Notes: a model not told the origin generated them from the sequence alone. A DNA stretch of 64,000 nucleotides from an uncultured Chromatiaceae bacterium (GCA_964417725.1 CAYQIV010000009.1:33849-97848), one strand, 5' to 3'; positions 6,031 to 23,768 are shown, counted from the first letter of the stretch. Made by a program: numbers and translations.

Positions 6031-7130
6031 TAGACCCCTACATCGCTGTCGCCCTGCAGACGACTGTCCGCCATGTCACACATCGCAGCGAGGTCGAACG
6101 CAATCTGGTCCACATCGGCAACATGGTCGATCTGGTCTGCCATATCTGCTCACTGGAACTGCCCGTGCGCCTGGTCACGCTCGGCGAAGGCGCGATACAG
6201 GGTTTCGTCGACGAGATCATGCACCTGTCGCCGGCGGAATACGCCGAGCGAATGGCGGCCGAAATCCCCGGCGACGAGACCAATTTCCTCGGTGAACGGG
6301 CCCGCCGGCACGGCATCTGGCTGCTCGGTCAGCTCAAGGAAAAGGTCTCGGGATATCCGGGGCGCTTCTTCAACACCGTGTTCCTCATCGATCCGCAGGG
6401 CAAGGTGGTCTACAAGCATCGCAAGAACGTTGTTTTGTTCGTCGAGCACTCGACCACGCCGCACGATGTCTATGACCGGTGGGTCGAGGAACATGGTGAT
6501 GGCCTGGACGCCTTTTTTCCGGTCGCGAGGACCGAGATCGGCAACATCGGCGGCAGCGTCGGCGTCGAGGGATCGTTCCCGGAAAGTTACCGCGGCTTCG
6601 CCATGAACGGAGCCGAGATTCTTTACCGGGGGTCGTTGCCGGAGCCGTGGGTCTCGAGGGAGATATGGGACGTCCAGAACCGTGCGCGTGCGGTCGACAA
6701 CACGGCATATCTCATGGCACCCAACTGTGGTGCACTCGTCATGCCCGGCAGCCCGCCGGTGACGATCGGTGGCGCACTCGGTGGCAAGTCGATGATCGCT
6801 GGCTACAAAGGCGAGTTGCTGGCGCAAAGCAGTGCAACGGACGATTGCTACGTCAGCGCCGAGATCAACATCGAGGCGCTGCGCTACTACCGCGAGACAG
6901 CCCGTTTCCAGAACTGGCTGCCGTATCTGCGCACCGAAATCTATCGCCAGATCTACGCCAAACCGATCTGGCCGAAGAACCAGACGGCCTCCGACGATGA
7001 GGCAGCAGGCGCACTGTTCAATGCTTCGGTGGCCCGGCTCCAGGCTGATGGCGCCTATACGCCGCGGGATACCTGCTATCCTTCCACGCCGGCTGCCCCA
7101 GGCCGGAACGGGCAAGATGGCAAGGAGTGA
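6027..7130 (+). CDS. carbon-nitrogen hydrolase (nitrilase superfamily) paralogue lacking the catalytic cysteine
   Basis: ATG at 6027 overlaps the UbiD-family gene's stop (ATGA). The 367-aa product is clearly homologous to the product of 7374..8513. The Glu (LVTLGEG) and Lys (YKHRKN) positions are kept, but the nucleophile motif reads GGSVGVEGSFPE where the paralogue has GTLICAEGSYPE. Confidence 0.75.
   Translation: MIDPYIAVALQTTVRHVTHRSEVERNLVHIGNMVDLVCHICSLELPVRLVTLGEGAIQGFVDEIMHLSPAEYAERMAAEIPGDETNFLGERARRHGIWLLGQLKEKVSGYPGRFFNTVFLIDPQGKVVYKHRKNVVLFVEHSTTPHDVYDRWVEEHGDGLDAFFPVARTEIGNIGGSVGVEGSFPESYRGFAMNGAEILYRGSLPEPWVSREIWDVQNRARAVDNTAYLMAPNCGALVMPGSPPVTIGGALGGKSMIAGYKGELLAQSSATDDCYVSAEINIEALRYYRETARFQNWLPYLRTEIYRQIYAKPIWPKNQTASDDEAAGALFNASVARLQADGAYTPRDTCYPSTPAAPGRNGQDGKE
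6530..6551 (+). repeat. 22-bp segment identical (inverted) to 7974..7995
   Basis: GACCGAGATCGGCAACATCGGC, encoding (T)EIGNIG just upstream of the active-site position in the Cys-less paralogue. Confidence 0.8.
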
Positions 7131-7372
7131 TCGTGGCAAAAATACTGCGGCGTTCGCAGGACAGGGTGCTGTTGGGCGTCTGTGGGGGCGTTGCCGAATG
7201 GATGGGGTGGGAAGCGAACTCGGTGCGGCTCGGCTATGCCGTCCTGACGGTGGTCAGTCTTCTGCTACCGGGCATTTTCATCTATACCCTGCTGCTGCTT
7301 TTCATGCGGCCACCCGGATACACGCCCTCACCGCAGAGCCCGCCGCACGACGACGAAGAGCGGGGCCGCTGA
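7127..7372 (+). CDS. PspC-domain membrane protein
   Basis: 81 aa. LLGVCGGVAEWMGWEANSVRLGYAVLTV matches the PspC-domain signature and is followed by a transmembrane helix. The GTG start overlaps the upstream stop (GTGA). Confidence 0.75.
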   Translation: MIVAKILRRSQDRVLLGVCGGVAEWMGWEANSVRLGYAVLTVVSLLLPGIFIYTLLLLFMRPPGYTPSPQSPPHDDEERGR

Positions 7373-7373
7373 C

Positions 7374-8513
7374 TCAACGGTTACCGCTGCGCGCCAGGCG
7401 CTCGAGCACGTCGCCATCCACCGGGAAGGGCTGCCAGTCTCGCGGTGGCGTGTAGACACCCCAGGAAACCATCTTGTTGACTTGATGCTTGACCAGCTCG
7501 AGTTGCTCCGATTCGGTGAACGGCGGGGCATCCATGCACAGGTTCTTCGGGTAGATGCCGCCGCGCGACAGCGCTGCCGCGTAGATGGCATGGTATTCCT
7601 CGACGCGCATGTCCTTGACCAGGTTTTGCCATTGCGCCCTGACGCGAAAATCGCGCAACGCCTCGATGTCGAACAGTCCACTGACCAGCGTCTCGCCACC
7701 GCCCAGATACTCGGAGATGATGCCACCCCGGTAGTCGATGATCTGACTCTTGCCGCAGCTCATCTTGTGACCACCGCCGGGGAACCAGATCCCGCCGATG
7801 TTGGGTGCCATCACGTAGGCCGTGTTGAAGACGGCGTGCGAGCGGTTCTGGATTTCGGCGATCCCGTTGCCCATCCACGGCTCGGGGTACTGGGTGCGCC
7901 AGATGATTTCCGCACCATTCATCGCCAGCCCCCGTGCGGCCTCCGGATAGCTGCCCTCGGCGCAGATCAGCGTGCCGATGTTGCCGATCTCGGTCTTTGC
8001 CACAGGGAAAATGGCCTGGAACAGCTTTACCGGATCGTCACCGTAGCGGCGCAGGTAGAGGTCCCAGATGTCGCTGGGCGCGACGTTCGGTTCCCGCTGG
8101 TAGAACGCCGTCTTGTAGTGTTTGTGGATGACCTCGCCCTGCGGGTCGATGACGAAGGCGATATTGAAGACCCGATCCTCCATGAGCGTCGGGTCCCTGG
8201 CCACCATCTGCGCGATGATGTACACATTGAACTCGCGGGCCAATGCCCCGAGCGCCGCCGTCTCCGGCCCCGGAATCTCCGGCGCAACCTCCCGGCAGAT
8301 GCGCAGATGCTCGTCCCCGCCACCCAGGCACCAGCCACCGATGCCACCTTCAGAAACGGCCACCAGCCTGACCGGCAGGTCGAGGCTGCAGTTCCAGACC
8401 GCATAGCGGATGCTGAGGGCCAGGGCATCGATGTCCTTCATATAGTCATCACGCGTGACCGCCATGCGCGACTCGTTCTGTATGCCAACGGCGGTGTACC
8501 TGAGGGAAGACAT
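7374..8513 (-). CDS. carbon-nitrogen hydrolase (nitrilase superfamily), catalytic triad intact
   Basis: 379 aa. Has Glu (LVAVSEGG), Lys (HKHYKT) and the Cys-x-Glu nucleophile elbow (LICAEGSYPE). Its stop lies 1 nt from the PspC gene stop (convergent). Confidence 0.75.
   Translation of the reverse strand: MSSLRYTAVGIQNESRMAVTRDDYMKDIDALALSIRYAVWNCSLDLPVRLVAVSEGGIGGWCLGGGDEHLRICREVAPEIPGPETAALGALAREFNVYIIAQMVARDPTLMEDRVFNIAFVIDPQGEVIHKHYKTAFYQREPNVAPSDIWDLYLRRYGDDPVKLFQAIFPVAKTEIGNIGTLICAEGSYPEAARGLAMNGAEIIWRTQYPEPWMGNGIAEIQNRSHAVFNTAYVMAPNIGGIWFPGGGHKMSCGKSQIIDYRGGIISEYLGGGETLVSGLFDIEALRDFRVRAQWQNLVKDMRVEEYHAIYAAALSRGGIYPKNLCMDAPPFTESEQLELVKHQVNKMVSWGVYTPPRDWQPFPVDGDVLERLARSGNR
7974..7995 (-). 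repeat. inverted copy of the 22-bp segment at 6530..6551
   Basis: The plus strand reads GCCGATGTTGCCGATCTCGGTC, the exact reverse complement of 6530..6551. Confidence 0.8.
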
Positions 8514-13514: not shown

Positions 13515-13537
13515 AGACCGCTCATCCAGGTGATCGC

Positions 13538-14119
13538 ATGAAACAAAGCACCGTACTGCTCGTCGACGACGAACCCAACCTGACCGCCGCCATGAAACGC
13601 GCATTGCGCGACCAGCCATGGAAAGTGATCTGCGCCGGTGGCGCCAGCGAGGCGCTGGAGATCCTCGATCGCGAACCCGTCGACGTGGTCGTCTCCGACG
13701 AGCGGATGCCCGGCATTTCGGGCTGCGAACTGCTGGCACGCGTCCGCACGAGGCACCCCGACACCATTCGCATGGTCCTGTCGGGCCAGGCCAGCCTCGA
13801 TTCGGCCATCAAGGCCATCAACGAGGGTGAGGTCTACCGCTACTTCCTCAAGCCCTGCAATCCGGCAGAACTGGCCACGACGATTCGCCAGGCACTGGCC
13901 CACAAGCAGCTGCTGGCATTGAGCAAGCAACTGCTGCGCGACTACCAGCGCAAGAACCGTCTGCTCCAGGAACTCGAGGAGGTCAACCCCGGGCTGACGC
14001 AACTGAACCTGGATGACGACGGCGCGATCCTCGTCGAGGAGGACGATGATGGCGATATCAATGACTTCCTGGCCAGCCTTGAGCGCGAGATCGCTGGCGC
14101 ACGGAGCCCGCGTACCTGA
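13538..14119 (+). CDS. response regulator, receiver domain with coiled-coil/acidic C-terminal tail
   Basis: 193 aa. REC domain (VLLVDDEP...VVVSDERMPGISG...FLKPC), then LLALSKQLLRDYQRKNRLLQELEE and an acidic stretch. Confidence 0.85.
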   Translation: MKQSTVLLVDDEPNLTAAMKRALRDQPWKVICAGGASEALEILDREPVDVVVSDERMPGISGCELLARVRTRHPDTIRMVLSGQASLDSAIKAINEGEVYRYFLKPCNPAELATTIRQALAHKQLLALSKQLLRDYQRKNRLLQELEEVNPGLTQLNLDDDGAILVEEDDDGDINDFLASLEREIAGARSPRT

Positions 14120-14129
14120 GCGTGGCCGG

Positions 14130-14768
14130 TCAGTCGTCAGCCGGGTAGTAGTGATCGAGACAGAATGCGCACAGGGTGTGGCTGGTCTCGACGGGTGACT
14201 TTTCCACCCATTCCGGCACCCAGTCCCAACCACCGGCCTCAACCATATTCTCGACCCGCCGGCAGTGCGCGCACTGGTGGATGATGCCATCGGCATCGGC
14301 GTAGCGCGCCTTGTCCGGCCCACAAACGGGGCGCCCCCGTTCGGTCATCGATTGTTCGGCGACCAGCGAGTTGACCACGAGCAGGCCGACTGCACCCGGC
14401 AGGCGGTAAAGGGTCATCAGGAAACGCCGGTATCGCGCCGGGCTGGAGCATTCGTACTCATGCTGGAGCGGGGTTTTCGGGCCTGCGCCCTCGCCGGCGA
14501 CCGCCCGCTGGTAGAGCCCGGTGTAATAGGCCTTCAGCGCCGCCGGAACGGCATCAAGCACGCAGCGTTCGAGTGGCCACTCACGGAGGATCGCAGGTTG
14601 CCCGCCATTATCGGCGGCAAAATGCAGCCAGGCGGGGTTGACGTAGATGAGGTCAAGATCCGGGTCCAGCCCGTAGACCGAATCGCGATGGGCCTCCATC
14701 GCCGCAAGGTCCCAGCGGGCCAGCACCTCGCGGTAGGCCGGACTGCAACGGTGTTCGAAGCTATCCAT
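14130..14768 (-). CDS. PAS-like sensor protein with C-terminal CxxC...HxxCxxC module
   Basis: 212 aa. PAS-like core (DLIYVNPAWLHFAADNGG...EYECSSPARYRRFLMTLYRL...LLVVNSLV) plus C-terminal IHQCAHCRRV...WDWVPEWV...SHTLCAFCLDHYY. Confidence 0.6.
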   Translation of the reverse strand: MDSFEHRCSPAYREVLARWDLAAMEAHRDSVYGLDPDLDLIYVNPAWLHFAADNGGQPAILREWPLERCVLDAVPAALKAYYTGLYQRAVAGEGAGPKTPLQHEYECSSPARYRRFLMTLYRLPGAVGLLVVNSLVAEQSMTERGRPVCGPDKARYADADGIIHQCAHCRRVENMVEAGGWDWVPEWVEKSPVETSHTLCAFCLDHYYPADD

Positions 14769-14872
14769 TCACCCTCCGGCAGGATGACAGCCGGACACGG
14801 CGCAAGGATGAAGGCCACCACCTGCCGGCGTCTGCGACGGCAGTCACACCGGCGATGCAGCGTGAAGCCAGG

Positions 14873-17668
14873 TCAGCCTGGCGCCCTGGCGGAACCTATC
14901 TTCTCGAAGTTGCAGGTGAAATCGGCAAAGGTCTGGTTGGGTTCGAAGGCCAGCGGCCGGTAGGTGATATGCCCATAGCCGCTGACCAGCGAGGTGCGCT
15001 TGATGAGTGCGGCGCTCGAGATGACGGCACCGAAGTTCTGGCGCCGCGGAAACAGCATCGGGTCCCAGCCGTGATACATGAACAGCGTTCCGGGCGGCAT
15101 CATGCTGCTGACGTGCGCCATGGCATCGAATGCGCCGAGCTTGTTGTAGACCCGCAGCATGTCTCCATCGACCACGCCACGTGCCGCGGCATCGACCGGG
15201 CTGACGTAGACATCCGGTTGCCCGCGACGCAGGCTGAGCAGCAGCGCATCGTCGGTCCACATGTTGTGGATGCCATGACGGACGTGCCCCATGATCATCT
15301 GCAAAGGATAGCCGGGCAGGCGCAACGGTTCACGGTATGCCGGCAGTTGCTCGTCCTCGGACAGGAACCAGGGATGGTCCAGGTAGTACTGCTGGCGCCC
15401 CGTCAGCGTCGGATAGGGCTCGTGCTTTTCGACAGCGCGCAACATGACCGAGCCATACGGCGACCCGGGTCCGTACACGACCCGGTCGGTGTCTTCATTG
15501 CGCATCAGTCCGCGACGGGCCATTTCGGCGAACGGCACCTTTGGCACACCTTCGTCCCTGCCGATCAGGTATTCGATGACATCGACCGTATCGGTGATGC
15601 GGCCATCCATCGTGTACTGGGCGTGGTAACGCGTGAAGTCGCGACTGATCGGCATGCCGTGGAATTCATCGGTGATCGGTGCGACATTGCGCTGCCCGGC
15701 CCGCCGACTGATTGCCGCCGCCAGCCGCTCCAGAACCCGCCAGTCATCGACCGCCTCGCCGAGCGGCGGAACCGCGGCATCGAGCACCTGAACATAGGGT
15801 GTGCGCGCCTCGAGCATGTAGTCCTTGCGCTCGTAATGGTGGGCAACCGGCAACACGTAATCAGAGTACATCGCCGTGACACCCATGTCGGGTGCCAGGG
15901 TGACGATGGTCTCGAGTTGGGCGAGCCACTTCTCGCGCCAACGCCCGCCGGCCGAGCGCCAGGCGGCGGCATTGCTCCCGGCATAGATGGCCATCTTCCA
16001 CGGGGTGGCCGCGTAATCGGGCCAACCACCGGTCTCTGTGGCCTCCCTGAACGCGGCATCGACCTCGTCGGCCAGGGCCTTGCCGTAGACCTGCTCGTTG
16101 AGGTCACGGCCCTCCGCGTGGACGTAATCCCAGCGCGCCGCCGTCGCCACGCGGAAGGTCGGTGGATTGCCATTGAACATGAAGTCGATCTGGCTGTCCG
16201 TGCGCCCCAGGTTCTCGAGCTGCAGCCCACCACCCGCCTTGCCGAGGTTTCCCGTCAGTGAAAGCAGCAGCATGAATGCCCGCTGGACCAGGTCGCCATG
16301 CAGCGACTTGCACATTCGGTAACCCGTGAAGATCATCGCCGGCCTGGCAGCAGCGAACGTCCGCGCCAGCCAGCGGATGTTGTCGGCGTGCACGCCACAG
16401 AGCGTCGCCGCCTTCTCCGGCACGTAGGCCGCGGCCCGTTGGCGCAGCAGGGAGTAGACCGGCATCACCCGGATGACGCCTTCGCGTGTCTCGACGTCGA
16501 AGCGGCCTTCCAGCACCGGCCGGATCGCACCAAGCGCCAGCGATCCCCCGGGAATGACCGGTTCCGGTGAACCGGGCGGCGGCGGCGGATTGCCGGTCGC
16601 CGGCGCCTGCACCAGCTTGTCCGTGACCTCGTCCCAGACGTAGAAGACATTGTCCCTGGCATCGGGCGCTGCGCTGAGGTCCGTTTCGCGCAGGTAGCGG
16701 CCGGTGTCCGCCCGAACCAGAAATGGCAGGTCGGTCTGCTCGCGCACGTAATCGCGGTCGACCAGCCGTTCGCTGAGGATGACCTCGATCATGCTCATGG
16801 CGAGTGCGGCATCCGTGCCAGGCCGGGGATTGATCCAGCGGCTGGCATGCATGGCAGTCGGCGTGAACTCGGGCGAGATCGCGATGACCTCCGTGCCGTT
16901 GTAGCGCGCCTCCCAGAAAAAATGCGCATCGGGGATGCGCGTCACCGCCGGGTTGCAGAACCAGACCAGGCAGCACTTCGACTTGAATACGGCCGCCATG
17001 GTATCGCCGAGCAACGCCTCACCGACGGTCATGTAGACACCGGTCGGCAGGTCACCAACGCCGGCGAAGGCCTCGGGAAGCTCGATGCCCGACAACGCGG
17101 CAAAGCGCCCCAGCGCGGCGAAAGATGCCCGCTTGAGGACCATCTGCGTGCCGAGGTCCATGCTGATCGAACGCGGCCCATGCGCCACCGAGTTATCGAT
17201 GAACCGGTCAGCGATCTCGTCCATCGCCTGTTCCCAGCTGATGCGCTCCCATCTGCCTTCGCCGCGCGCACCGAGGCGTTTCATCGGGTACAGGACCCGC
17301 TGTGCGCCATACATGTACTTGGCATGGCGCAGGCCCTTCTGGCAGCCGCGTGGGCCGTAGTCCGGCGCGTCCTCGGAGCGGCCGTATTCGCCCTGTTGCT
17401 CCTCGCGCCAGACGATGTTGTTCTTCACATAGACGTTGAACGCACAGTTGCCCGTGCAATTGGTCCCGTGGGTGCCGCGCACGACGCGATCCCAGGTCCA
17501 CTTGTGGCGCATCAGGTCTTCCCACCCGCGATACGGCTGCGGCTCGCCGCCATCGATGGCGGCCGCCGACACGTACTTGAGCGACAGGGTTGTCGCGAGT
17601 GCGCCGGACCCCGCGAGAAAGTGTCGCCGGTCGAACCGGGTGGATTCCATCGAGGGATTCGTTGCCAT
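14873..17668 (-). CDS. Tat-exported molybdopterin oxidoreductase, type II DMSO-reductase family catalytic subunit (NarG/EbdA/SerA-like)
   Basis: 931 aa. Twin-arginine leader STRFDRRHFLAGSGALA, FS0 motif HGTNCTGNCAF...GPRGCQKG (H-x3-C-x3-C...C), and WDRVVRGTHG...VYVKNNIVWREEQ resembling the NarG N-terminus. Confidence 0.8.
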   Translation of the reverse strand: MATNPSMESTRFDRRHFLAGSGALATTLSLKYVSAAAIDGGEPQPYRGWEDLMRHKWTWDRVVRGTHGTNCTGNCAFNVYVKNNIVWREEQQGEYGRSEDAPDYGPRGCQKGLRHAKYMYGAQRVLYPMKRLGARGEGRWERISWEQAMDEIADRFIDNSVAHGPRSISMDLGTQMVLKRASFAALGRFAALSGIELPEAFAGVGDLPTGVYMTVGEALLGDTMAAVFKSKCCLVWFCNPAVTRIPDAHFFWEARYNGTEVIAISPEFTPTAMHASRWINPRPGTDAALAMSMIEVILSERLVDRDYVREQTDLPFLVRADTGRYLRETDLSAAPDARDNVFYVWDEVTDKLVQAPATGNPPPPPGSPEPVIPGGSLALGAIRPVLEGRFDVETREGVIRVMPVYSLLRQRAAAYVPEKAATLCGVHADNIRWLARTFAAARPAMIFTGYRMCKSLHGDLVQRAFMLLLSLTGNLGKAGGGLQLENLGRTDSQIDFMFNGNPPTFRVATAARWDYVHAEGRDLNEQVYGKALADEVDAAFREATETGGWPDYAATPWKMAIYAGSNAAAWRSAGGRWREKWLAQLETIVTLAPDMGVTAMYSDYVLPVAHHYERKDYMLEARTPYVQVLDAAVPPLGEAVDDWRVLERLAAAISRRAGQRNVAPITDEFHGMPISRDFTRYHAQYTMDGRITDTVDVIEYLIGRDEGVPKVPFAEMARRGLMRNEDTDRVVYGPGSPYGSVMLRAVEKHEPYPTLTGRQQYYLDHPWFLSEDEQLPAYREPLRLPGYPLQMIMGHVRHGIHNMWTDDALLLSLRRGQPDVYVSPVDAAARGVVDGDMLRVYNKLGAFDAMAHVSSMMPPGTLFMYHGWDPMLFPRRQNFGAVISSAALIKRTSLVSGYGHITYRPLAFEPNQTFADFTCNFEKIGSARAPG

Positions 17669-17670
17669 GT

Positions 17671-18375
17671 TCAGGGTCCTGGTCGGGTCATCGTCATTGT
17701 CGGCGCGCCGGCCGCCGGCTCGGCCGGCAAGCGGCCATGGTCGCCCGGCGCAATGAAGGGTTGGTCGCCGCCGATGAGCAGCTGCGCCTCAATCAGCGGC
17801 AAACGGTCATTGCCGAAGTACATGTCGGTACCGAGGAAAAAAGTCGGGGAACCGAAGCCACCGCGGGCCACCAGCGTATCGCAGTTGTCCTGGAGTGCGG
17901 CCGCCGTATCAGCCGCAGCGACGGCACTGCGGAAGCGGGCGCGGTCGAGCCCCACCGCCACGGCAATGTCATCGATGACATCTTCGGCCAGGATGTCCCT
18001 GCCCTCCGTGAAATACGCGCGGAAAACGGCGTGGGCGTAATCCGGCCCCTGACCGGCGGCACTCGCCACGATCGCCCCACGCTGGGCGCGCTCCGGTGTC
18101 ACCGGCCAACGGGGTGGCAAGTGGATGCGCACGCCGCAATACCGCGCCCAATCCTGGAGGTCCTTGGCCGAATATGCTGCCTTGCGCGGGTTCGGGTCGA
18201 GCCGCGTGCCGGGAAAACTGCGGTTGGCCTCGGCGTGGACCCTGTCGACGAGGATCGGCAGGTAGCGCACGGTGGCACCGGTGCGCATCGCCACTTCGCG
18301 GATGCGCACGAATGCCAGATACGTCCATGGGCAGGAGCAGCAGTAGTAGAAATCGATTTCCCTGGCCGTCGTCAT
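17671..18375 (-). CDS. DsbA-like thioredoxin-fold protein (2-hydroxychromene-2-carboxylate isomerase family)
   Basis: ATG at 18375 overlaps the ligase stop (ATGA). 234 aa. MTTAREIDFYYCCSCPWTYLAF...GFGSPTFFLGTDMYFGNDRL is typical of the HCCA-isomerase/DsbA family. No signal peptide. Its stop lies 2 nt before the molybdoenzyme ATG. Confidence 0.7.
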   Translation of the reverse strand: MTTAREIDFYYCCSCPWTYLAFVRIREVAMRTGATVRYLPILVDRVHAEANRSFPGTRLDPNPRKAAYSAKDLQDWARYCGVRIHLPPRWPVTPERAQRGAIVASAAGQGPDYAHAVFRAYFTEGRDILAEDVIDDIAVAVGLDRARFRSAVAAADTAAALQDNCDTLVARGGFGSPTFFLGTDMYFGNDRLPLIEAQLLIGGDQPFIAPGDHGRLPAEPAAGAPTMTMTRPGP

Positions 18376-19910
18376 CGCACGCGGTCGCGCAACGCCGTCT
18401 TCAGCACCTTGCCGTTGGCATTGCGGGGAATTTCCCCAAGGAAATCGAAATGTTTGGGCACCTTCATGCGTGACACCTGCCCACTGCACCAGTCGCTGAT
18501 CGCCGCCGGGTCCAGCGATTGGCCGGGACGACAGACGACAAACGCCTTGAGGACCTCGCCCCACTTGTCGTCGGGCACGCCGATGATGGCCACATCCGCC
18601 ACCGCCGGGTGGCGCAGCAGTACGTCCTCGACCTCACGGGGATAGATGTTGACCCCGCCTGAAATCACCATGTCCTTCTTGCGGTCGACGATGTAGAGGT
18701 AGCCTTCGGCATCCCGCCGGGCCAGGTCACCGACACTCACCCAACCGTCCTGGAAGGCCTCGGCAGTGTCTTCTGGCCTTCCAAAATAACCATTGAAAAG
18801 ATAAGGACTTGAAGAAAATAGCTCGCCCACTTCATCAATATCGCAGATCCGGCCATCCGGGCGGCGAACCTCGACCTGCGTACACGGGAAGGGCTGTCCC
18901 ACGCAGCGTACCTTGCGTATTTGGTCTGGTGGCCGGAGGTTCGAGACGATGCCAGCCTCCGTCGAGCCATAGGTTTCATGAAGGCGTCCGGGGCCGAAGT
19001 AATCGACCAGCACCTCCTTCATGGGCTGGGGCATGGCCGCCGCGTTGGAGATCACCGTGCGCAACGTGTTGTCGCGGGCCGCATCGCGCTGCGCTGCTCC
19101 GAGGGACATCATCGAGTGAAAGTGTGTCGGCACGCCGAAAAACCCCGTGAACGGCGCCTCGCCGAGGCGGCGCATGACGAGTTCCGGCTCGAACCGGTCG
19201 ATGATCTCGGCATGGCCACCGAAAAAGATCGGGGCCAGCGAGAACACCATGCCCGCACCGTGGCACATCGGCGCGATGGCCAGGAAACGATCGTCCGGCC
19301 CGTAGCAGCCATACTCCACCGCCATGCCGAAAAGCGTCAGGATCCGCGAGCGGTGCGAAACCAGCACGCCCTTGGGCTTGCCCGTGGTCCCCGACGTGTA
19401 GGGGATCGTGAACGTGTCCCACTCCGCCACATTCCGGGGAATGGCCGCCGGACGCGCCCGACCGAGCTGTTGCGTCAACTCATCGCCGATGACGATGATG
19501 TGGCGCACGCTCTCGAAGCGACAATCGCGCAGCGCCTCGGCATATTCCGCATCGGCAAACAGGACCAGGGCGCGGGCATCGTTGCAGATGGCGACGATCT
19601 CCGGCACCGCGAGACGCGGGTTGACGGTGGCCAGCGCGATGCCGGCCTGGGATGCACCGATGACGATCTCGAGGTACTCGATCGAGTTCCTGGCGACGAT
19701 GGCGCCATGCTGGCCGGGTGCAAGGCCGATGCCCGTCCCCAGGAATGCGCTGACGCGGTCGATGCGATCGACGAGTTCCGCGTAGGTGCGGGTCTTCGAC
19801 CCGTGCCGGCACGCCACCTTGGCCGGGTCGCGCGTCATCGCGGCACGGACGCCGGCAGCCAGCGAAAGGTGCTGGAACGATGCGGGCAGAACGGCAGGCG
19901 TCGGTGTCAT
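18372..19910 (-). CDS. AMP-dependent synthetase/ligase (acyl- or aryl-CoA ligase)
   Basis: ATG at 19910 is preceded by AGGA. Motifs YTSGTTGKPKGV, GYFGRPEDT and DRKKDMVISGG are present, plus a C-terminal ...PRNANGKVLK. Confidence 0.85.
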   Translation of the reverse strand: MTPTPAVLPASFQHLSLAAGVRAAMTRDPAKVACRHGSKTRTYAELVDRIDRVSAFLGTGIGLAPGQHGAIVARNSIEYLEIVIGASQAGIALATVNPRLAVPEIVAICNDARALVLFADAEYAEALRDCRFESVRHIIVIGDELTQQLGRARPAAIPRNVAEWDTFTIPYTSGTTGKPKGVLVSHRSRILTLFGMAVEYGCYGPDDRFLAIAPMCHGAGMVFSLAPIFFGGHAEIIDRFEPELVMRRLGEAPFTGFFGVPTHFHSMMSLGAAQRDAARDNTLRTVISNAAAMPQPMKEVLVDYFGPGRLHETYGSTEAGIVSNLRPPDQIRKVRCVGQPFPCTQVEVRRPDGRICDIDEVGELFSSSPYLFNGYFGRPEDTAEAFQDGWVSVGDLARRDAEGYLYIVDRKKDMVISGGVNIYPREVEDVLLRHPAVADVAIIGVPDDKWGEVLKAFVVCRPGQSLDPAAISDWCSGQVSRMKVPKHFDFLGEIPRNANGKVLKTALRDRVR

Positions 19911-19914
19911 TCCT

Positions 19915-20808
19915 TCACTCCTGGCCTGGCAGGCGGAACACGCGCAGCGCATTGTCGCGCATCAGCAAGCGGTGCGCCTCCCCGCTCAGCCCCAGCGCAT
20001 CGACTTCTCGGACCGCGCGCTCCGGGTCGATGACCGGCCAGTCGGTGCCAAACATCACCTTGTGGCGCCCGTACGTGCTGGCGTAATGCACGAATGATGG
20101 CGGCCAGTAGCGCGGCGCATAGGCATCACCTGCCGCGTAGACATTCTCGTGCTTCCAGCACATGGAGATCATTTCCTCCGTCCACGGGATGCCGATGTGG
20201 ATGCCGATGAGGCGCAGTTCGGGGAAATCGATGGCCACCTGATCGAGGCAGATCGGGCGGCCAACCGAGGGCAGGCGCCGGTGGCGCGAGTACACCAGGT
20301 TGTGTCCGACCTGCATCATGATCGGGATATCGAGCTCGCAACACTTGGCATAGTAGGGATAGTACTTGGCGTGATCCGGCGCCAGCCCACACCAGTGCGG
20401 GTAGAGGTGGGCGCCGACGAAACCGTACTCGCGCACCGCCTGCTCGAGATCCCGCAGGCCCTGCATGCCGCGGAAGGGGTCGATACCGGCCAGCCCGGAA
20501 AAACGCGCGGGGTGGTTTTGACAAACCTCGTGGACGCGCTGGTAGGGGATCTCGAAGCCCCCCCGCACGTTGATGTCGCCGGCCCGCACGGCGATGAGCA
20601 GCGAGCGCTCGATGCCCGCCCGGTCCATGCGCGCCAGATAATCCTCGACGGACACGCCACCCCGGATATCCTCCGGCATGCGGACCTGGCGTTTGAAGTC
20701 CTCGTCGAGCCCCGTCTGGCCGGCCATGACTTCCTGCGGGGTAAAGAGGTTGCAGACGATGTCGATCGTGCCATCGCGCGATGTCGAAGGATTGCTGCTA
20801 CTGACCAT
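19915..20808 (-). CDS. amidohydrolase-2 family (ACMSD/LigW-like TIM-barrel hydrolase or decarboxylase)
   Basis: 297 aa from ATG 20808. Contains VGAHLYPH, MMQVGH and FGTDWP metal-site-like motifs. The first strand reads IDIVCNL instead of the usual D-x-H-x-H. The start choice overlaps the upstream gene by 11 nt. Confidence 0.65.
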   Translation of the reverse strand: MVSSSNPSTSRDGTIDIVCNLFTPQEVMAGQTGLDEDFKRQVRMPEDIRGGVSVEDYLARMDRAGIERSLLIAVRAGDINVRGGFEIPYQRVHEVCQNHPARFSGLAGIDPFRGMQGLRDLEQAVREYGFVGAHLYPHWCGLAPDHAKYYPYYAKCCELDIPIMMQVGHNLVYSRHRRLPSVGRPICLDQVAIDFPELRLIGIHIGIPWTEEMISMCWKHENVYAAGDAYAPRYWPPSFVHYASTYGRHKVMFGTDWPVIDPERAVREVDALGLSGEAHRLLMRDNALRVFRLPGQE

Positions 20809-21709
20809 CGAGATCCCACTCGCCAGCAGAACGGGAGCGCACGGGCAACCCGGCAATCACCGGGGCCTGATACTTGTCGCGCGGGTCGTAGTTGATTGGT
20901 TTGCCCTCGACGACGATGCGCTCGTTCACCGTGATCCAGTTGATCAGCGAGCCGTCCAGGCGGAAGAAGCCCGTCCAGCCGCGCTCTTCACCCGCCACGA
21001 AATGACCGTGCTTGACGCGCGCCGGCCTGAAAAAATAGGTACCGGCGTCGAGCGTGCCGAAGTTGTAGACCAGATGGCCATCGAGGCTGTAGGCCTCCTC
21101 GAACACCGGGTGGTGCACCATGCGGTTGTCCGACCAGCCCGGCGGTGCCCAGGCCAGCATCGTGACAAACCCCTTGTCGTTGTGCCCCGGCGGCGCCGGG
21201 TCATGATAGAGGAGCTTGAGCTTGAGAAACCGCTGCGTATCGCCCTCATAGGCGTTGGGCATCCACTCCATGCGCGAGGTGTCGACAATCGTCAATTGCC
21301 CTTGCTCGCTCGAAGCCGTGTTGCCACCCCGGGGCACGAAACGGCCGCGGTCCTTCGACGAAAGCGAGAAGCCCCAATCACCAAACTCACGGAAGATCAG
21401 CACATCGGTACCGGCGGCCGCCTCCATCGGGGGGATGCACAGCCCGGCGGGTGCGCGAAAATATCCGCCCTTGCCGAGAAAGCGGTCACCAATCCGGATG
21501 GTTCCGGACATGACGTACCACTCGACGTCCGCATGATGATAGCCGGCCTCCCGACGCCACGCCTTGTCGAACACGACGCGCGTCGACGCGGCACCGTTCT
21601 CCTCGTCGTAGGACAGGTTTCTCTGCCGCACCTTGCCGTCGCTGCGGGCAAGTTCCGCCTCGTGCCAGACGAGGTCCGCTTCCTGGATCAGTTCCACATG
21701 AGGGCGCAC
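20798..21709 (-). CDS. bicupin protein
   Basis: 303 aa with an internal duplication: YHHADVEWYVMSG...GGYFRAPAG and VHHPVFEEAYSLDG...GTYFFRPARV. Both are cupin-like HH-x3-E motifs. Confidence 0.6.
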   Translation of the reverse strand: MRPHVELIQEADLVWHEAELARSDGKVRQRNLSYDEENGAASTRVVFDKAWRREAGYHHADVEWYVMSGTIRIGDRFLGKGGYFRAPAGLCIPPMEAAAGTDVLIFREFGDWGFSLSSKDRGRFVPRGGNTASSEQGQLTIVDTSRMEWMPNAYEGDTQRFLKLKLLYHDPAPPGHNDKGFVTMLAWAPPGWSDNRMVHHPVFEEAYSLDGHLVYNFGTLDAGTYFFRPARVKHGHFVAGEERGWTGFFRLDGSLINWITVNERIVVEGKPINYDPRDKYQAPVIAGLPVRSRSAGEWDLDGQ

Positions 21710-21743
21710 TGCCTTTCTCCCTTGGGTTGGCTGTCGTGGTGGC

Positions 21744-22106
21744 TCAGCGCGAGCCCCGGCGCCGCGTACCGGCCACCTTCCTGCGGGACTGGCTGGCGGT
21801 CTTGCGGGCCTTCTTCTTCACCTTTTTTCCTGGCTGACTGCCCGGCCGGCGCCTGCCGGCGGGACGGGTTTCCTCGAGCAGCAGGAAGTCGTCGCACAGG
21901 GCCCGCGTCTGGCGGCACGCCTCGATGAAGTCCTCCATCACCGGCCCGCTGACCGGCACCTGCCCAGGGGCCGGCGCCGCCCGCTTGAGGGCCCGCCAGT
22001 CCTTGTTCAGCCGCCGCAGGGTCTGCTCCACGGCATTGGCGACGTACCGGGCATGGAAATCCCAGTCACCGCGGATGGCGCCCAGATCCACCGTCTTGTC
22101 GGTCAT
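21744..22106 (-). CDS. hypothetical small protein with Arg/Lys-rich C-terminal tail
   Basis: ATG at 22106 (MTDKTVDLGAIRGDWDFHARY...). 120 aa. Tail RPAGRRRPGSQPGKKVKKKARKTASQSRRKVAGTRRRGSR. No family recognised. Confidence 0.5.
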   Translation of the reverse strand: MTDKTVDLGAIRGDWDFHARYVANAVEQTLRRLNKDWRALKRAAPAPGQVPVSGPVMEDFIEACRQTRALCDDFLLLEETRPAGRRRPGSQPGKKVKKKARKTASQSRRKVAGTRRRGSR

Positions 22107-22131
22107 TTGCCCACTCCCCGAGTGTCCTTGA

Positions 22132-22182
22132 ATATTTGTATTTGATCGGTCATTGATCAAGCTGCATTTGTGAGTCAAATAT
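22132..22182. promoter_or_regulatory. nested inverted repeats in a low-GC divergent promoter region
   Basis: Outer arms ATATTTG (22132..22138) and CAAATAT (22176..22182). Inner TTGATC-N7-GATCAA (22142..22160). Located between the divergent starts at 22106 (-) and 22293 (+), in the most AT-rich stretch of the window. Confidence 0.4.
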
Positions 22183-22292
22183 AGCACCATTCACCCTCGA
22201 TGGAAGCCACCGCCGCCCGGACGCCATTGCCCACGGGGGGTCCGGCAGGCTATGAATGCCGCTGCGCGCCAAGGCGCCCGGGAGAGACCTGC

Positions 22293-22967
22293 ATGTCGTC
22301 GTATCTGCTGTGGAACTACCTGCATATCCTGATGTTCGTTTTCTGGGTCGGCACCGACATGGGGGTCTACCTCGCCGCCCGCAAATCGACCGACTCCCGG
22401 CTCGATTTCATGACGCGCGTGCTGCTGCTGCATCTGGCACTGCGCATCGAGCTGCTGCCACGAACGATGTGGAAGGCGGCCCTGCCCTTTGGCGTCATGC
22501 TGTCGCGCGACCTCGGCCTCATCGCGATCAGCGACACCGGCGTGGTACTGGTATGGCTTTTCAGCCTGGTCTGGTGGGGCATCAGCATGACGGGTGCGTG
22601 GTACTACGACCGGCCGTTCGGGCACCGGTTGGCGCGGATCACCAATTGGCTGACGAGCGCGGTCGGCGTCGCGCTGATCGCGCTGTGCGCGACGTCATGG
22701 GCCGGCCTCGGACCGTTCACGGCGGACGCGACGTGGCTGCAACTCAAGGTTGCGCTGTATGGCGTGATCAACCTGCTGGTGGTCGCCATGATCGTGGTGT
22801 TCGACCCGCTGGGCGCAGCCTTCGGCAGGCTGGCCGTGGAGGGATCGACGGCGGAGATCGAAGCGATCATCCGCAACACCATGGGCCGATCGACGGTCGT
22901 GATCTGGTCGACGTACGCGCTGATCTGCATCGTCGGGTTCATCGGCACGACGCGGATCCTTGGCTGA
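22293..22967 (+). CDS. integral membrane protein, function unknown
   Basis: ATG at 22293 (MSSYLLWNYLHILMFVFWVGTDMGVYL...). 224 aa with about six hydrophobic helices. Confidence 0.6.
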   Translation: MSSYLLWNYLHILMFVFWVGTDMGVYLAARKSTDSRLDFMTRVLLLHLALRIELLPRTMWKAALPFGVMLSRDLGLIAISDTGVVLVWLFSLVWWGISMTGAWYYDRPFGHRLARITNWLTSAVGVALIALCATSWAGLGPFTADATWLQLKVALYGVINLLVVAMIVVFDPLGAAFGRLAVEGSTAEIEAIIRNTMGRSTVVIWSTYALICIVGFIGTTRILG

Positions 22968-23072
22968 GGGTGCTCTCGTGACAGTGGGCAGCGACCGGCG
23001 ATGGGCGGTAGCCAGCCCCGCGGTGATTCGTTATAGTCGCCCGCCTGTATTTTTTTCCCGTGTATCAGGGGG

Positions 23073-23726: not shown

Positions 23727-23738
23727 GTCGCCACCCGC

Positions 23739-23768
23739 CCCGCTGGCCGTGCTGTGACGGCCAGCGGG
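23739..23768 (+). terminator. 11-bp GC-rich hairpin after the outer-membrane protein gene (no U-tract)
   Basis: CCCGCTGGCCG-N8-CGGCCAGCGGG, 12 nt after the stop codon. Confidence 0.35.

What the first reader, a model, noticed from the sequence alone, without database searches (positions are those of the whole stretch)
14130..22106. Seven-gene co-directional cluster mixing a periplasmic molybdoenzyme with cytoplasmic aromatic-acid-type enzymes
All seven genes are on the minus strand with short or negative spacers. In transcription order they are:
1. a small basic-tailed protein
2. a bicupin
3. an amidohydrolase-2
4. an AMP-forming ligase
5. a DsbA/HCCA-isomerase-like protein
6. the Tat molybdoenzyme
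7. a PAS-Cys protein (after a 104-nt gap)

The junctions are tight: an 11-nt overlap, a 4-nt spacer carrying AGGA, an ATGA overlap and a 2-nt spacer.

Cupin dioxygenases or isomerases, amidohydrolase-2 decarboxylases or hydrolases, CoA ligases and HCCA-isomerase-like proteins are individually familiar from aromatic acid catabolism. Type II molybdoenzymes include oxygen-independent hydroxylases. I do not recognise this particular combination as a described pathway. It may be an uncharacterised catabolic or detoxification module, but the substrate cannot be inferred from sequence alone.
Basis: inference. Interest (0 to 1): 0.65.

Follow-up and report, generated by a model that had tools for sequence, protein, structure and literature searches.

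The report
Conserved molybdoenzyme operon, function unknown
Six of the seven genes, plus an overlooked membrane-protein gene next door, form a conserved and so far undescribed gene cluster in many uncultured bacteria. It links an exported molybdenum enzyme to cytoplasmic acid-processing enzymes and probably breaks down a still unknown organic compound.

Summary
All seven minus-strand genes, their domains and every stated junction are confirmed.

The conserved unit is not the seven genes:
- Gene 7 (14130-14768) occurs in none of 80 related loci and has no PAS hit.
- The recurrent unit is a divergent 6-helix membrane protein (g0, 22293-22967, +) plus g1-g6.
- 43 of 80 species-level genomes carrying this molybdoenzyme clade have the amidohydrolase and ligase beside it.
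- All 37 loci with g2-g6 keep the same order.

The cluster is a mosaic of three modules that recur independently:
- g1 + DUF4437 bicupin + HCCA-isomerase-like protein.
- Amidohydrolase-2 + adenylate-forming ligase.
- Type II DMSO-reductase alpha + g0.

The alpha keeps its Tat motif, FS0 ligands and Mo-binding Asp. It lacks the signature residues of PcrA and His192 of EbdA. It usually has no FeS beta subunit nearby, although paralogous loci and a few cluster variants do. In variant clusters a VAO/PCMH-type flavoenzyme stands where the alpha would be.

Best reading (inferred): a new catabolic operon with an oxygen-independent periplasmic oxidation followed by cytoplasmic CoA activation and processing. 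The substrate is unknown. No curated family or paper describes it. Co-transcription remains untested.

The parts
22293..22967 (+). g0: divergently transcribed 224-aa membrane protein of six long helices. It belongs to a family with no Pfam model and is a conserved partner of the cluster.
   Evidence: - No Pfam or PDB sequence hit.
- AF2 model has pLDDT 86 and six helices. The best PDB fold match has E = 0.3, so there is no match.
- 362 relatives, all named 'hypothetical'; 515 clusters at 50% identity.
- Distant members give only sub-threshold hits to DUF2269, CopD and HemJ.
- Divergent g0 lies within 1 kb in 25 of 27 A-type loci with enough upstream sequence.
- His11, Trp18, Gly20, Asp22 and Arg42 are invariant.
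22107..22292 (.). Divergent spacer between g0 and g1. It is locally A+T-rich and holds a perfect inverted repeat, TTGATC-N7-GATCAA, at 22142-22160.
   Evidence: - Sequence read.
- No sigma-70-like match on either strand of this spacer.
- The repeat is absent from 28 other loci.
- No Rfam hit.
21744..22106 (-). g1: 120-aa protein with a conserved N-terminal motif (VDLGAIRGDWxFH) and a K/R-rich tail. It travels with the bicupin.
   Evidence: - No Pfam or NCBIfam hit.
- Found in 12 of 43 A-type loci, directly upstream of g2 in 7.
- Also lies beside g2 in variant loci L093, L095 and L097, at 32-66% identity.
20798..21709 (-). g2: DUF4437 / ChrR-type bicupin, 303 aa.
   Evidence: - Pfam PF14499, E = 4.6e-33.
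- 41% of columns are invariant across loci.
- His199, His200, Glu204, Glu205, His234 and His236 are invariant in the C-terminal barrel.
- Nearest folds are an uncharacterised 'putative dioxygenase' (2qdr), acetylacetone and dihydroxyacetophenone dioxygenases, ChrR and ureidoglycine aminohydrolase. The model is poor (pLDDT 51).
19915..20808 (-). g3: amidohydrolase-2 family protein, 297 aa. It is the most conserved protein of the cluster.
   Evidence: - Pfam PF04909, E = 1.4e-40, matched only from residue 88 onwards.
- 73-89% identity across loci, with 54% of columns invariant.
- N-terminal D-I-V-C-N stands where family members carry HxH (the motif position is from my own knowledge of the family).
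- Best PDB hit is 3irs (function unknown), then LigW and LigJ.
18372..19910 (-). g4: AMP-forming (class I adenylate-forming) ligase, 512 aa.
   Evidence: - Pfam PF00501 plus PF13193.
- Below every NCBIfam cut-off.
- Best PDB hit is feruloyl-CoA synthetase 8wev.
- Gene callers start it at 19910.
17671..18375 (-). g5: thioredoxin-fold protein like HCCA isomerase / kappa-GST, 234 aa, with no signal peptide. It has Cys-Pro where the isomerases have Ser-Pro.
   Evidence: - Pfam DSBA, E = 1e-32.
- Best PDB hit is 2-hydroxychromene-2-carboxylate isomerase 2imd, E = 1e-19.
- Least conserved member: 26-58% identity, 6% of columns invariant.
- Follows g2 directly in variant loci that lack the Mo enzyme.
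14873..17668 (-). g6: Tat-signal type II DMSO-reductase-family molybdopterin alpha subunit, 931 aa. It belongs to an uncharacterised clade.
   Evidence: - TIGR03479 scores 817 bits, below its cut-off of 985.
- Best PDB hit is PcrA, 537 bits over residues 43-923.
- The RRxFL motif is conserved in all relatives.
- FS0 ligands His67, Cys71, Cys75 and Cys109, the Mo ligand Asp206 and Lys454 are invariant in 47 alphas.
- No beta or delta subunit gene anywhere in the 64-kb window.
14130..14768 (-). g7: 212-aa protein with a C-terminal CxxC...CxxC motif. It is a neighbour and not part of the conserved cluster.
   Evidence: - No Pfam hit at E <= 10.
- Absent from all 80 related loci.
- Its single relative (40% identity) lies in an unrelated context.
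4597..8513 (.). Loosely linked accessory block. It holds a VdcC-like UbiD-family decarboxylase (4597-6030, +), two divergent CN_hydrolases (6027-7130, + and 7374-8513, -) and a PspC-domain gene between the two hydrolases.
   Evidence: - Domain assignments: Pfam for the 7374-8513 hydrolase; gene-call Pfam entries for UbiD, the second hydrolase and PspC; NCBIfam.
- Not canonical UbiD: 160 bits against a cut-off of 788.
- CN_hydrolases recur near the cluster in 27 of 38 A-type loci, and a 467-aa protein matching the window's UbiD-family gene in 20 of 38.
- The 6027-7130 copy lacks the Cys nucleophile.

Best explanation
**What it is**
Window 14873-22967 holds a conserved, undescribed gene cluster. 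A divergently transcribed membrane protein (g0) faces an operon g1-g6. g7 is an unrelated neighbour.

**Three modules**
The operon combines three modules that also occur separately elsewhere:
1. A small basic protein, the DUF4437 bicupin and the HCCA-isomerase-like protein (g1, g2, g5).
2. An amidohydrolase-2 plus an adenylate-forming ligase (g3, g4), inserted between g2 and g5.
3. A Tat-exported type II DMSO-reductase alpha subunit (g6) together with g0.

**Most likely function (inferred, not shown)**
A catabolic route for an organic, probably phenolic, aromatic-acid-like or heterocyclic compound:
- The Mo enzyme performs an oxygen-independent oxidation (hydroxylation or dehydrogenation) in the periplasm.
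- Its electrons leave through an FeS beta subunit encoded elsewhere in the genome, then cytochrome c. g0 may take part, as membrane redox partner or as importer.
- The acid product is taken up and thioesterified by g4.
- It is then processed by g3 (decarboxylase, hydratase or hydrolase), g2 (metal-dependent C-C-cleaving dioxygenase or hydrolase) and g5 (thiol-dependent isomerase).

**Shown:** gene content, conservation, modularity and intact cofactor ligands.
**Inferred:** direction of the redox reaction, order of steps, substrate class and supply of beta in trans.
For: **Conservation**
- 43 of 80 species-level loci have g3 and g4 beside the alpha. All 37 loci with g2-g6 are colinear. Alpha identity falls to 56%.
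- Tight or overlapping junctions suggest translational coupling.

**Modularity**
- g1-g2-g5 occurs without g3, g4 or alpha in L093, L095 and L097, with g2 still 71-77% identical.
- A g3-like amidohydrolase (50-55% identity) sits next to an adenylate-forming enzyme on megaplasmids of four cultured Proteobacteria.
- Alpha occurs with beta but without g2-g5 in 27 of 33 paralogous loci.

**The alpha looks like a working exported redox enzyme**
- Its RR motif, four FS0 ligands, Mo-binding Asp and Lys454 are invariant.

**Oxidative direction**
- In L093, L095 and L096 a g0-like gene directly precedes a 521-526-aa FAD_binding_4 enzyme in a cluster that has g2 but no alpha.
- That enzyme's solved relatives include glycolate oxidase, p-cresol methylhydroxylase and vanillyl-alcohol/eugenol oxidases.
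- In L040, alpha-beta is followed by two g0 paralogs and a cytochrome c.

**Beta supplied in trans**
- Beta follows alpha in the cluster variants L040, L045, L078 and L026, which nest within or beside the A clade.
- At least 9 genomes hold both a beta-less cluster and a paralogous alpha-beta locus (accessions, read).
- Steroid C25 dehydrogenase alpha2 was produced recombinantly with beta3-gamma3 of another isoenzyme (PMC6016249).

**Catabolic flavour**
- MFS transporters, TonB receptors, IclR regulators, hydrolases and an HpcH/HpaI aldolase recur around the variants.

**Expression**
- Short contigs from genuine metatranscriptomes cover g1, g4, g6 and g7, so the genes are expressed in sludge.
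Against: - No substrate, product or activity is known for any member. Everything mechanistic is inferred from family membership and neighbourhood.
- The alpha lacks the equivalent of EbdA His192 (an invariant Thr174 stands there). It is closer in sequence to perchlorate reductase, a reductase, than to the known hydroxylases.
- No beta, gamma or delta gene lies in the window, and 30 of the 32 clusters with more than 2 kb of downstream sequence also lack beta. Supply in trans is unproven for this organism.
- The flavoenzyme of the variants has no evident signal peptide (my reading of the sequence). Its compartment may therefore differ from that of the alpha.
- Neighbours such as CN_hydrolases, isochorismatase-type hydrolases and polysaccharide deacetylases point to amide or N-heterocycle chemistry rather than phenolics.
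- g3 lacks the usual HxH metal motif.
- g0 has no recognisable cofactor site beyond one invariant His.
- Co-transcription was not demonstrated.
Confidence: 0.45

Rival explanations
1. The operon is the same, but the substrate class differs. It degrades an amide, ureide or N-heterocyclic compound. In this reading the bicupin is a hydrolase like ureidoglycine aminohydrolase. g3 and the nearby CN_hydrolases, isochorismatase-type and deacetylase-type enzymes open rings and remove amide nitrogen. The Mo enzyme hydroxylates the heterocycle with water.
For: - Two CN_hydrolases lie near the cluster in 27 of 38 loci, and one lies directly upstream of the alpha in 23 of 32 paralogous loci.
- Isochorismatase-family hydrolases and polysaccharide deacetylases lie beside the cluster in L007. 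They also lie beside the g3-ligase pair in Rhizobium, Comamonas and Roseomonas plasmids.
- Ureidoglycine aminohydrolase and related bicupins are among the fold matches of g2.
Against: - The window CN_hydrolase at 6027-7130 and the one paralog-locus copy examined (L054) lack the catalytic Cys.
- Known N-heterocycle hydroxylases belong to the xanthine-oxidase family, not the DMSO-reductase family (my own knowledge).
- The g2 model is of low confidence.
- The accessory genes are not inside the operon, and they vary between loci.
Confidence: 0.2
2. The alpha is a respiratory or detoxifying reductase for an inorganic oxyanion or an S-/N-oxide (of the chlorate, perchlorate, selenate, nitrate or DMSO type). 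It shares a promoter with an unrelated cytoplasmic module.
For: - The closest solved structure is perchlorate reductase PcrA, at 537 bits.
- Paralogs have the canonical alpha-(delta)-beta layout with cytochrome c.
- The family's best-known members are oxyanion reductases (my own knowledge).
Against: - The PcrA gate residues Phe164, Tyr165 and Trp461 are not conserved.
- The alpha scores below the TIGR03479 cut-off.
- The g5/g6 junction is 2 nt here, and the gene order holds in all 37 loci down to 56% alpha identity. That is hard to explain without functional coupling.
- A flavin oxidase/dehydrogenase stands in the alpha's place in variant clusters.
Confidence: 0.15
3. The module is biosynthetic. 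The ligase, amidohydrolase, bicupin and isomerase make or tailor a small molecule such as a redox mediator, siderophore-like compound or cofactor. The exported Mo enzyme then oxidises it, or uses it, outside the cytoplasm.
For: - Adenylate-forming enzymes and cupins are common in natural-product pathways (my own knowledge).
- TonB-dependent receptors flank the cluster in 14 of 38 loci.
- An HMG-CoA synthase and a polyprenyl synthase lie near it in L009.
- A ferredoxin-dependent bilin-reductase homolog overlaps the alpha stop codon in the two gene-called loci L008 and L091; the family follows the alpha in 8 loci.
Against: - No carrier protein, condensation, PKS/NRPS or export genes are present.
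- The partners that recur with each module are hydrolases, acyl-CoA dehydrogenase, aldolase and uptake transporters.
- IclR regulators typical of catabolism accompany the variants.
Confidence: 0.1

Closest known systems
Gene clusters of the oxygen-independent type II DMSO-reductase hydroxylases: ethylbenzene dehydrogenase EbdABC(D), p-cymene dehydrogenase CmdABC, steroid C25 dehydrogenase S25DH
   Same: - A Tat-exported type II alpha with an FS0 cluster and an Asp ligand to Mo.
- The equivalent of EbdA Lys450 is conserved.
- A periplasmic oxidation is combined in one pathway with a cytoplasmic CoA ligase (my own knowledge of the ethylbenzene and p-cymene pathways).
- Paralogous alphas can use beta/gamma from another locus (PMC6016249).
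   Different: - Sequence similarity is lower than to PcrA: 387 bits, in two stretches.
- The equivalent of EbdA His192 is an invariant Thr.
- No beta or delta gene lies in the window. No gamma (haem b) or alcohol/aldehyde dehydrogenase gene appears among the called genes of the loci examined.
- The partners (bicupin, amidohydrolase-2, HCCA-isomerase-like protein, g0) are unknown in those clusters.
Perchlorate reductase PcrA (PDB 4ydd, 5e7o)
   Same: - It is the closest solved structure: 537 bits over residues 43-923.
- It has the same FS0 motif and the same Asp ligand.
   Different: - The aromatic gate residues Phe164, Tyr165 and Trp461 are not conserved. The window has Ala200 and Phe201, and an unalignable stretch at the third position.
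- There is no pcrBCD-type neighbourhood in the window.
4-Alkylphenol side-chain pathways: a PCMH/VAO-type hydroxylase followed by the cupin 2,4'-dihydroxyacetophenone dioxygenase
   Same: - Variant clusters pair the same bicupin (71-77% identical) with a FAD_binding_4 enzyme whose solved relatives include p-cresol methylhydroxylase and eugenol/vanillyl-alcohol oxidases.
- The g2 model's fold matches include dihydroxyacetophenone and acetylacetone dioxygenases.
   Different: - The flavoenzyme matches those relatives only over the FAD domain, and glycolate oxidase scores higher.
- g2 is a DUF4437 bicupin, not the single-domain dioxygenase.
- The g2 model is of low confidence.
- The window itself has the Mo enzyme, not the flavoenzyme.
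2-Hydroxychromene-2-carboxylate isomerase NahD / kappa-class GST
   Same: - g5 has the DSBA fold.
- Its best solved match is 2imd, E = 1e-19, over the whole length.
   Different: - The N-terminal motif is Cys-Pro rather than Ser-Pro (the Ser-Pro motif is from my own knowledge).
- g5 is weakly conserved, at 26-58% identity between loci.
- No naphthalene-pathway genes lie nearby.
Amidohydrolase-2 decarboxylases and hydratases (LigW, gamma-resorcylate decarboxylase, LigJ) and the uncharacterised BB4693 (3irs)
   Same: - The Pfam family is the same.
- These are the best solved relatives, with E from 1e-14 to 5e-5.
   Different: - Similarity is low.
- The Pfam match covers only residues 88-293.
- The N-terminal metal-binding HxH is replaced by an invariant D-I-V-C-N.

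Membership tests
Type II DMSO-reductase family, alpha subunit | Twin-arginine signal motif at the N-terminus | tested here: met
   The window has RFDRRHFLAG. The [STDN]RRxFL motif is present in all 82 aligned relatives.
Type II DMSO-reductase family, alpha subunit | FS0 [4Fe-4S] motif HxxxCxxxC...C and an Asp side chain as Mo ligand | tested here: met
   His67, Cys71, Cys75, Cys109 and Asp206 are invariant in 47 cluster alphas. Asp206 aligns with PcrA Asp170 and EbdA Asp223.
Type II DMSO-reductase family, alpha subunit | Score above the curated cut-off of NCBIfam TIGR03479 | tested here: not met
   817.3 bits against a cut-off of 984.75. The protein lies within the superfamily but outside the curated subfamily.
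Type II DMSO-reductase family, holoenzyme | Adjacent genes for the FeS beta subunit, the haem b gamma subunit and the TorD/NarJ-like delta chaperone | tested here: not met
   - tblastn with beta and delta from L084 finds nothing in the 64-kb window.
- Only 2 of the 32 clusters with more than 2 kb of downstream sequence have beta.
- 27 of 33 paralogous loci have beta.
Perchlorate reductase PcrA | Aromatic gate residues Phe164, Tyr165 and Trp461 | tested here: not met
   The window has Ala200 and Phe201, and no aligned Trp.
Ethylbenzene-dehydrogenase-like hydroxylases | Active-site His192 and Lys450 (EbdA numbering; residue roles from my own knowledge) | tested here: inconclusive
   Lys is conserved as Lys454, invariant. 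His is replaced by Thr174, also invariant.
Amidohydrolase-2 (PF04909) metal-dependent decarboxylases/hydratases | Pfam domain plus the N-terminal HxH (or ExH) metal ligands | tested here: inconclusive
   The domain is met at E = 1.4e-40, but only from residue 88. The N-terminal strand reads D-I-V-C-N, invariant in 44 sequences.
HCCA isomerase / kappa-GST (DSBA fold) | DSBA-like fold with an N-terminal Ser-Pro catalytic motif, plus glutathione dependence | tested here: inconclusive
   The fold and the best PDB match are met. The motif is Cys15-Pro16. Glutathione dependence cannot be tested here.
ANL superfamily acyl-CoA ligase | AMP-binding domain plus its C-terminal domain | tested here: met
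   PF00501 at E = 6e-71 and PF13193 at E = 9e-21. It reaches no equivalog cut-off, so specificity is unknown.
   No Pfam family matches at E <= 10.
Described catabolic pathway or curated operon | The same gene set in a curated family library or in the literature | tested here: not met
   - NCBIfam has no specific family for g1, g2, g3, g5 or g7.
- Source names are 'hypothetical' or 'DUF4437 domain-containing'.
- Full-text searches found nothing.
- Subscription journals are not covered, so absence is not proof.

The most novel reading that the evidence does not exclude
The g0 family would be a new kind of membrane redox partner or anchor. It would couple either a type II DMSO-reductase alpha subunit or a VAO/PCMH-type flavoenzyme to the respiratory chain without the canonical beta/gamma subunits. 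The g0/g1-g6 cluster would then encode a previously unknown oxygen-independent oxidation pathway. This pathway would be widespread in uncultured Gammaproteobacteria of sludge, soil, lakes and the sea.
Probability: 0.15. Interest if true: 0.8.

Novelty: new variant of a known kind. Interest (0 to 1): 0.6.

Why it matters
Type II DMSO-reductase enzymes are the only known catalysts that hydroxylate unactivated carbons with water. They also drive several oxyanion respirations. Each new clade so far has brought a new reaction.

- **A new clade.** It gave 299 hits among GTDB species-representative genomes, and the 80 loci examined are almost all uncultured. In at least 43 of those 80 it is welded to a fixed set of cytoplasmic enzymes.
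- **Poorly described parts.** Three members have no described function: the DUF4437 bicupin, g0 and g1. A fourth, the amidohydrolase-2, lacks the usual HxH metal motif.
- **A testable target.** Identifying the substrate would assign a function to several 'hypothetical' families at once. It could also reveal a carbon-turnover route in wastewater, soil and aquatic bacteria.
- **An assembly question.** The beta-less arrangement raises how such alpha subunits are matured, exported and wired to the respiratory chain.

Tried and rejected
1. **Co-transcription from public RNA runs.**
   - Four 'metatranscriptome' runs (X27, X28, X30, X31) gave flat depth of about 5-9 across convergent and divergent genes. 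Their contigs reach up to 218 kb, so they behave like DNA. They are uninformative.
   - Two genuine RNA runs (X36, X37) gave only short, low-depth contigs on g1, g4, g6 and g7. None spans a junction.
2. **g0 identity.**
   - Pfam, the PDB sequence search and Foldseek on a good model (pLDDT 86) found nothing significant.
   - A resemblance to HemJ/CopD that I recalled received only sub-threshold support from distant relatives. I do not file g0 there.
3. **g2 structure.** The AF2 model was poor (pLDDT 51), with only the N-terminal barrel confident. Its fold matches are leads only.
4. **g5 as a dedicated maturation factor for the alpha.** I considered this because g5 is weakly conserved and sits directly before g6. 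I rejected it because g5 follows g2 in clusters that have no alpha.
5. **Operator in the divergent spacer.** The TTGATC-N7-GATCAA repeat is absent from 28 other loci.
6. **RNA elements.** No Moco riboswitch or any other Rfam element was found.
7. **Promoters and terminators.** The simple scans found no more sites than in shuffled sequence.
8. **Literature.** Searches for DUF4437, and for type II DMSO-reductase clusters with these partners, found nothing relevant.
9. **Cluster in cultured organisms.**
   - All of the top 80 genome loci are MAGs or single-cell assemblies.
   - The plasmid collection has only distant g2 relatives, at 28-29% identity.
   - The g3-ligase pair does occur on megaplasmids of cultured bacteria.

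Full report
**1. The observation**

| Gene | Coordinates | Result |
|---|---|---|
| g1 | 21744-22106 | No family; K/R-rich tail |
| g2 | 20798-21709 | DUF4437 / Cupin_7 bicupin |
| g3 | 19915-20808 | Amidohydro_2 |
| g4 | 18372-19910 | AMP-binding plus its C-terminal domain |
| g5 | 17671-18375 | DSBA fold |
| g6 | 14873-17668 | Molybdopterin oxidoreductase; best NCBIfam model is the type II alpha subfamily TIGR03479, 817 bits against a cut-off of 985 |
| g7 | 14130-14768 | No family, even at E <= 10 |

- g2/g3: 11-nt overlap.
- g3/g4: TGA-AGGA-ATG.
- g4/g5: ATGA overlap.
- g5/g6: 2 nt.
- g6/g7: 104 nt.

The block is bounded below by a convergent histidine-kinase operon with three response regulators (8784-14119, +).

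**2. Is it a unit?**

The alpha has thousands of relatives in metagenomes, all unnamed or generically named. A scan of one genome per GTDB species found 299 loci. I examined the best 80, which are nearly all MAGs. They are Gammaproteobacteria, Chromatiales or Woeseia-like, with a few Alphaproteobacteria, Marinimicrobia, Bacteroidota and Polyangiaceae. Mapping the window's proteins onto them gave the following:
- 43 loci have g3 and g4 beside the alpha.
- All 37 loci that contain g2-g6 have them in the same order and on the same strand.
- 25 of the 27 loci with enough upstream sequence have g0 divergently within 1 kb.
- g1 is present in 12 loci.
- g7 is present in none.

Median identities to the window proteins:

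| Protein | Median identity |
|---|---|
| g3 | 81% |
| g2 | 73% |
| g4 | 65% |
| g6 | 63% |
| g0 | 61% |
| g5 | 39% |

The only relative of g7 in JGI metagenomes (40% identity) lies among unrelated genes. The conserved unit is therefore g0 plus g1-g6, and g7 is a neighbour.

**3. The cluster is a mosaic**

Three modules recur independently.

(a) *g1-g2-g5.* In MAGs labelled Steroidobacter sp. or Steroidobacteraceae, and in other MAGs, the bicupin (71-77% identical) sits with g1, and in L093 and L097 also with g5. It lacks g3, g4 and the alpha.
- It sits either next to IclR, a TonB receptor, an aminotransferase and an aldehyde dehydrogenase (L097/L098).
- Or it sits with an MFS transporter, a double alpha/beta hydrolase, a g0-like membrane protein (27-28% identity) and a 521-526-aa FAD_binding_4 enzyme (L093, L095, L096).

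(b) *g3-g4.* A 50-55% identical amidohydrolase lies immediately beside an adenylate-forming enzyme on megaplasmids of four cultured bacteria.
- The bacteria are Rhizobium sp. CC-CFT758, Comamonas endophytica, Variovorax sp. SRS16 and Roseomonas haemaphysalidis.
- In three of the four the ligase follows directly on the same strand. In Roseomonas the pair is divergent.
- The neighbours are isochorismatase-type hydrolases, polysaccharide deacetylases, alpha/beta hydrolases, acyl-CoA dehydrogenase and carboxylate transporters.

(c) *The alpha.* In 33 loci it occurs without g2-g5.
- 27 of these have an FeS beta subunit directly downstream.
- Some also have a TorD-like delta subunit and an MFS-cytochrome c fusion.
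- 23 of 32 have a CN_hydrolase-like gene directly upstream.

**4. The molybdoenzyme**

- The closest solved structure is perchlorate reductase PcrA (537 bits over residues 43-923). Ethylbenzene dehydrogenase and NarG follow.
- The twin-arginine motif is conserved in all relatives.
- The FS0 ligands (His67, Cys71, Cys75, Cys109), the Mo ligand Asp206 and Lys454 (the EbdA Lys450 equivalent) are invariant in 47 cluster alphas.
- The PcrA gate residues are not conserved, and the EbdA His192 equivalent is an invariant Thr174.

It is therefore an intact, exported type II alpha of a separate clade. Its active site matches neither the known reductases nor the known hydroxylases.

No beta or delta gene lies in the 64-kb window. 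Of the 32 clusters with more than 2 kb of downstream sequence, only L040 and L078 have beta. L045 and L026, which have less downstream sequence, have it too. These four nest within or beside the cluster clade in a neighbour-joining tree, so beta has been lost from the locus rather than never having belonged to it.

At least nine genomes carry both a beta-less cluster and a paralogous alpha-beta locus. Examples are CP070671 and OZ244928 (accessions, read). A precedent exists for a type II alpha working with beta/gamma from another locus: recombinant S25DH2 was made as alpha2-beta3-gamma3 (PMC6016249).

L040 shows a fuller layout, with every gene on one strand: g1-g6, beta, a g0 paralog, g0 and cytochrome c.

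**5. The other proteins**

*g0*
- AF2 gives a confident model (pLDDT 86) of six long helices, with no structural match in the PDB.
- The family has no Pfam model and every member is named 'hypothetical'.
- Distant members touch DUF2269, CopD and HemJ only below threshold.
- One His (His11) is invariant, together with Trp18, Gly20, Asp22 and Arg42.
- A 267-282-aa paralog, g0', accompanies g0 in about 22 loci but not in the window.
- g0-type genes sit next to the oxidoreductase, whether that is the Mo alpha or the flavoenzyme. This suggests a role as redox partner, anchor or substrate/product channel. That role is an inference.

*g2*
- It has invariant His/Glu sets in its C-terminal barrel.
- The AF2 model was poor (pLDDT 51).
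- Its fold matches are an uncharacterised 'putative dioxygenase' (2qdr), acetylacetone and 2,4'-dihydroxyacetophenone dioxygenases, ChrR, oxalate decarboxylase and ureidoglycine aminohydrolase. These are leads only.

*g3*
- It is the most constrained protein of the cluster.
- It has D-I-V-C-N where the family usually carries its N-terminal HxH.
- Its solved relatives are 3irs (function unknown), LigW and LigJ.

*g4*
- It is a generic medium-chain or aromatic-type ligase. Its best PDB match is feruloyl-CoA synthetase.

*g5*
- It resembles HCCA isomerase but has Cys-Pro in the catalytic motif and is weakly conserved.

**6. Mechanism**

The data support functional coupling: order is conserved down to 56% alpha identity, and the junctions are overlapping or minimal.

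The best-supported reading is a catabolic operon split across two compartments:
- An oxygen-independent oxidation by the exported Mo enzyme, with electrons passing to beta and cytochrome c and possibly to g0.
- Uptake of the product.
- CoA activation by g4.
- Processing by g3, g2 and g5.

The strongest hint about the direction and type of the redox step comes from the variant clusters. In clusters that share the bicupin and a g0-like gene but lack the alpha, a VAO/PCMH-superfamily flavoenzyme directly follows the g0-like gene. In alkyl-aromatic metabolism, type II Mo hydroxylases and PCMH-type flavoenzymes perform equivalent water-dependent side-chain hydroxylations (my own knowledge).

A rival substrate class is amides, ureides or N-heterocycles. 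It is suggested by the recurrent CN_hydrolases, isochorismatase-type hydrolases and deacetylases. However, two of the three CN_hydrolases examined lack the catalytic Cys.

An oxyanion-reductase reading and a biosynthetic reading are less likely but are not excluded.

The substrate, the order of steps and the supply of beta in trans are all inferred.

**7. Expression**

The organism is common in activated-sludge and bioreactor metagenomes. Several runs labelled as RNA behave like DNA. Genuine metatranscriptomes show low-level transcripts of g1, g4, g6 and g7 but give no junction information. No riboswitch was found, and no convincing promoter or terminator.

**8. Novelty and verdict**

- No curated family or paper describes this combination.
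- The principle of a periplasmic type II Mo oxidation feeding a cytoplasmic CoA-dependent pathway is known. The alpha clade, the partner set, the g0 family and the beta-less layout are new.
- I rate it a new variant of a known kind, with interest 0.6.

Noticed in passing
L054 8823-9926; L084 9929-16434 (paralogous loci): Paralogs of the alpha (55-59% identical) form their own conserved locus. A CN_hydrolase-like gene lies directly upstream; in the copy examined (L054) the catalytic Cys position is Ala/Ser. It is followed by alpha, sometimes delta, and beta. In L084 an MFS transporter fused to a cytochrome c domain comes next. The function is unknown and I know of no description.
   Followed up: partly
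window 4597-8513: A VdcC-like UbiD-family decarboxylase (not the ubiquinone UbiD), two very divergent CN_hydrolases and a PspC-domain gene lie here. The hydrolase at 6027-7130 lacks the Cys nucleophile. CN_hydrolases recur near the cluster in 27 of 38 loci, and a 467-aa protein matching the window's UbiD-family gene in 20 of 38.
   Followed up: partly
window 22142-22160: A perfect inverted repeat, TTGATC-N7-GATCAA, lies in the A+T-rich part of the g0/g1 divergent spacer. It is not found in the equivalent spacer of 28 other loci.
   Followed up: yes
window 14130-14768; L099 5920-6618: g7 belongs to a rare family with a conserved C-terminal motif (IIHQCAHCR ... W..VP.W ... SH.LC..C..YYP). It has no Pfam hit. 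Its one relative lies in an unrelated neighbourhood.
   Followed up: partly
L100-L103 (plasmids NZ_CP104990, NZ_CP106882, NZ_LR594669, NZ_CP061179): A g3-like amidohydrolase (50-55% identical) is always adjacent to an adenylate-forming enzyme in cultured Rhizobium, Comamonas, Variovorax and Roseomonas. These strains are tractable hosts for finding the substrate of that module.
   Followed up: partly
L040 14256-15104; L008 4254-5057; L007 3713-4537: A 267-282-aa paralog of g0 (g0') lies next to g0 in about 22 cluster loci. It is missing from the window and its closest relatives.
   Followed up: partly
L007 14238-16121: A 477-aa Amidohydro_2 protein with a twin-arginine signal (SRRDFLRTSGG) lies next to a small cytochrome c. 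This large amidohydrolase family recurs beside the cluster in 12 loci. A periplasmic amidohydrolase-2 would be unusual.
   Followed up: no
L008 12772-13461; L091 10765-11466; L041 12767-13459: A distant homolog of ferredoxin-dependent bilin reductases follows the alpha in 8 loci and overlaps its stop codon in the two gene-called loci (L008, L091). It is absent from the window.
   Followed up: no
runs X27, X28, X30, X31 laid on window 12500-24500: Runs deposited as metatranscriptomes give flat depth over both strands and over intergenic DNA. Their contigs reach 218 kb. They therefore contain mostly DNA and should not be used as expression evidence.
   Followed up: yes
window 8784-14119 and 23791-28060: The flanking genes are ordinary. 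On one side is a PAS histidine kinase with three response regulators (HDOD, HD_5 and a stand-alone receiver). On the other side are glycogen genes: a starch-synthase-type glycosyltransferase, a 4-alpha-glucanotransferase and a nucleotidyl transferase of the glucose-1-phosphate adenylyltransferase type.
   Followed up: no
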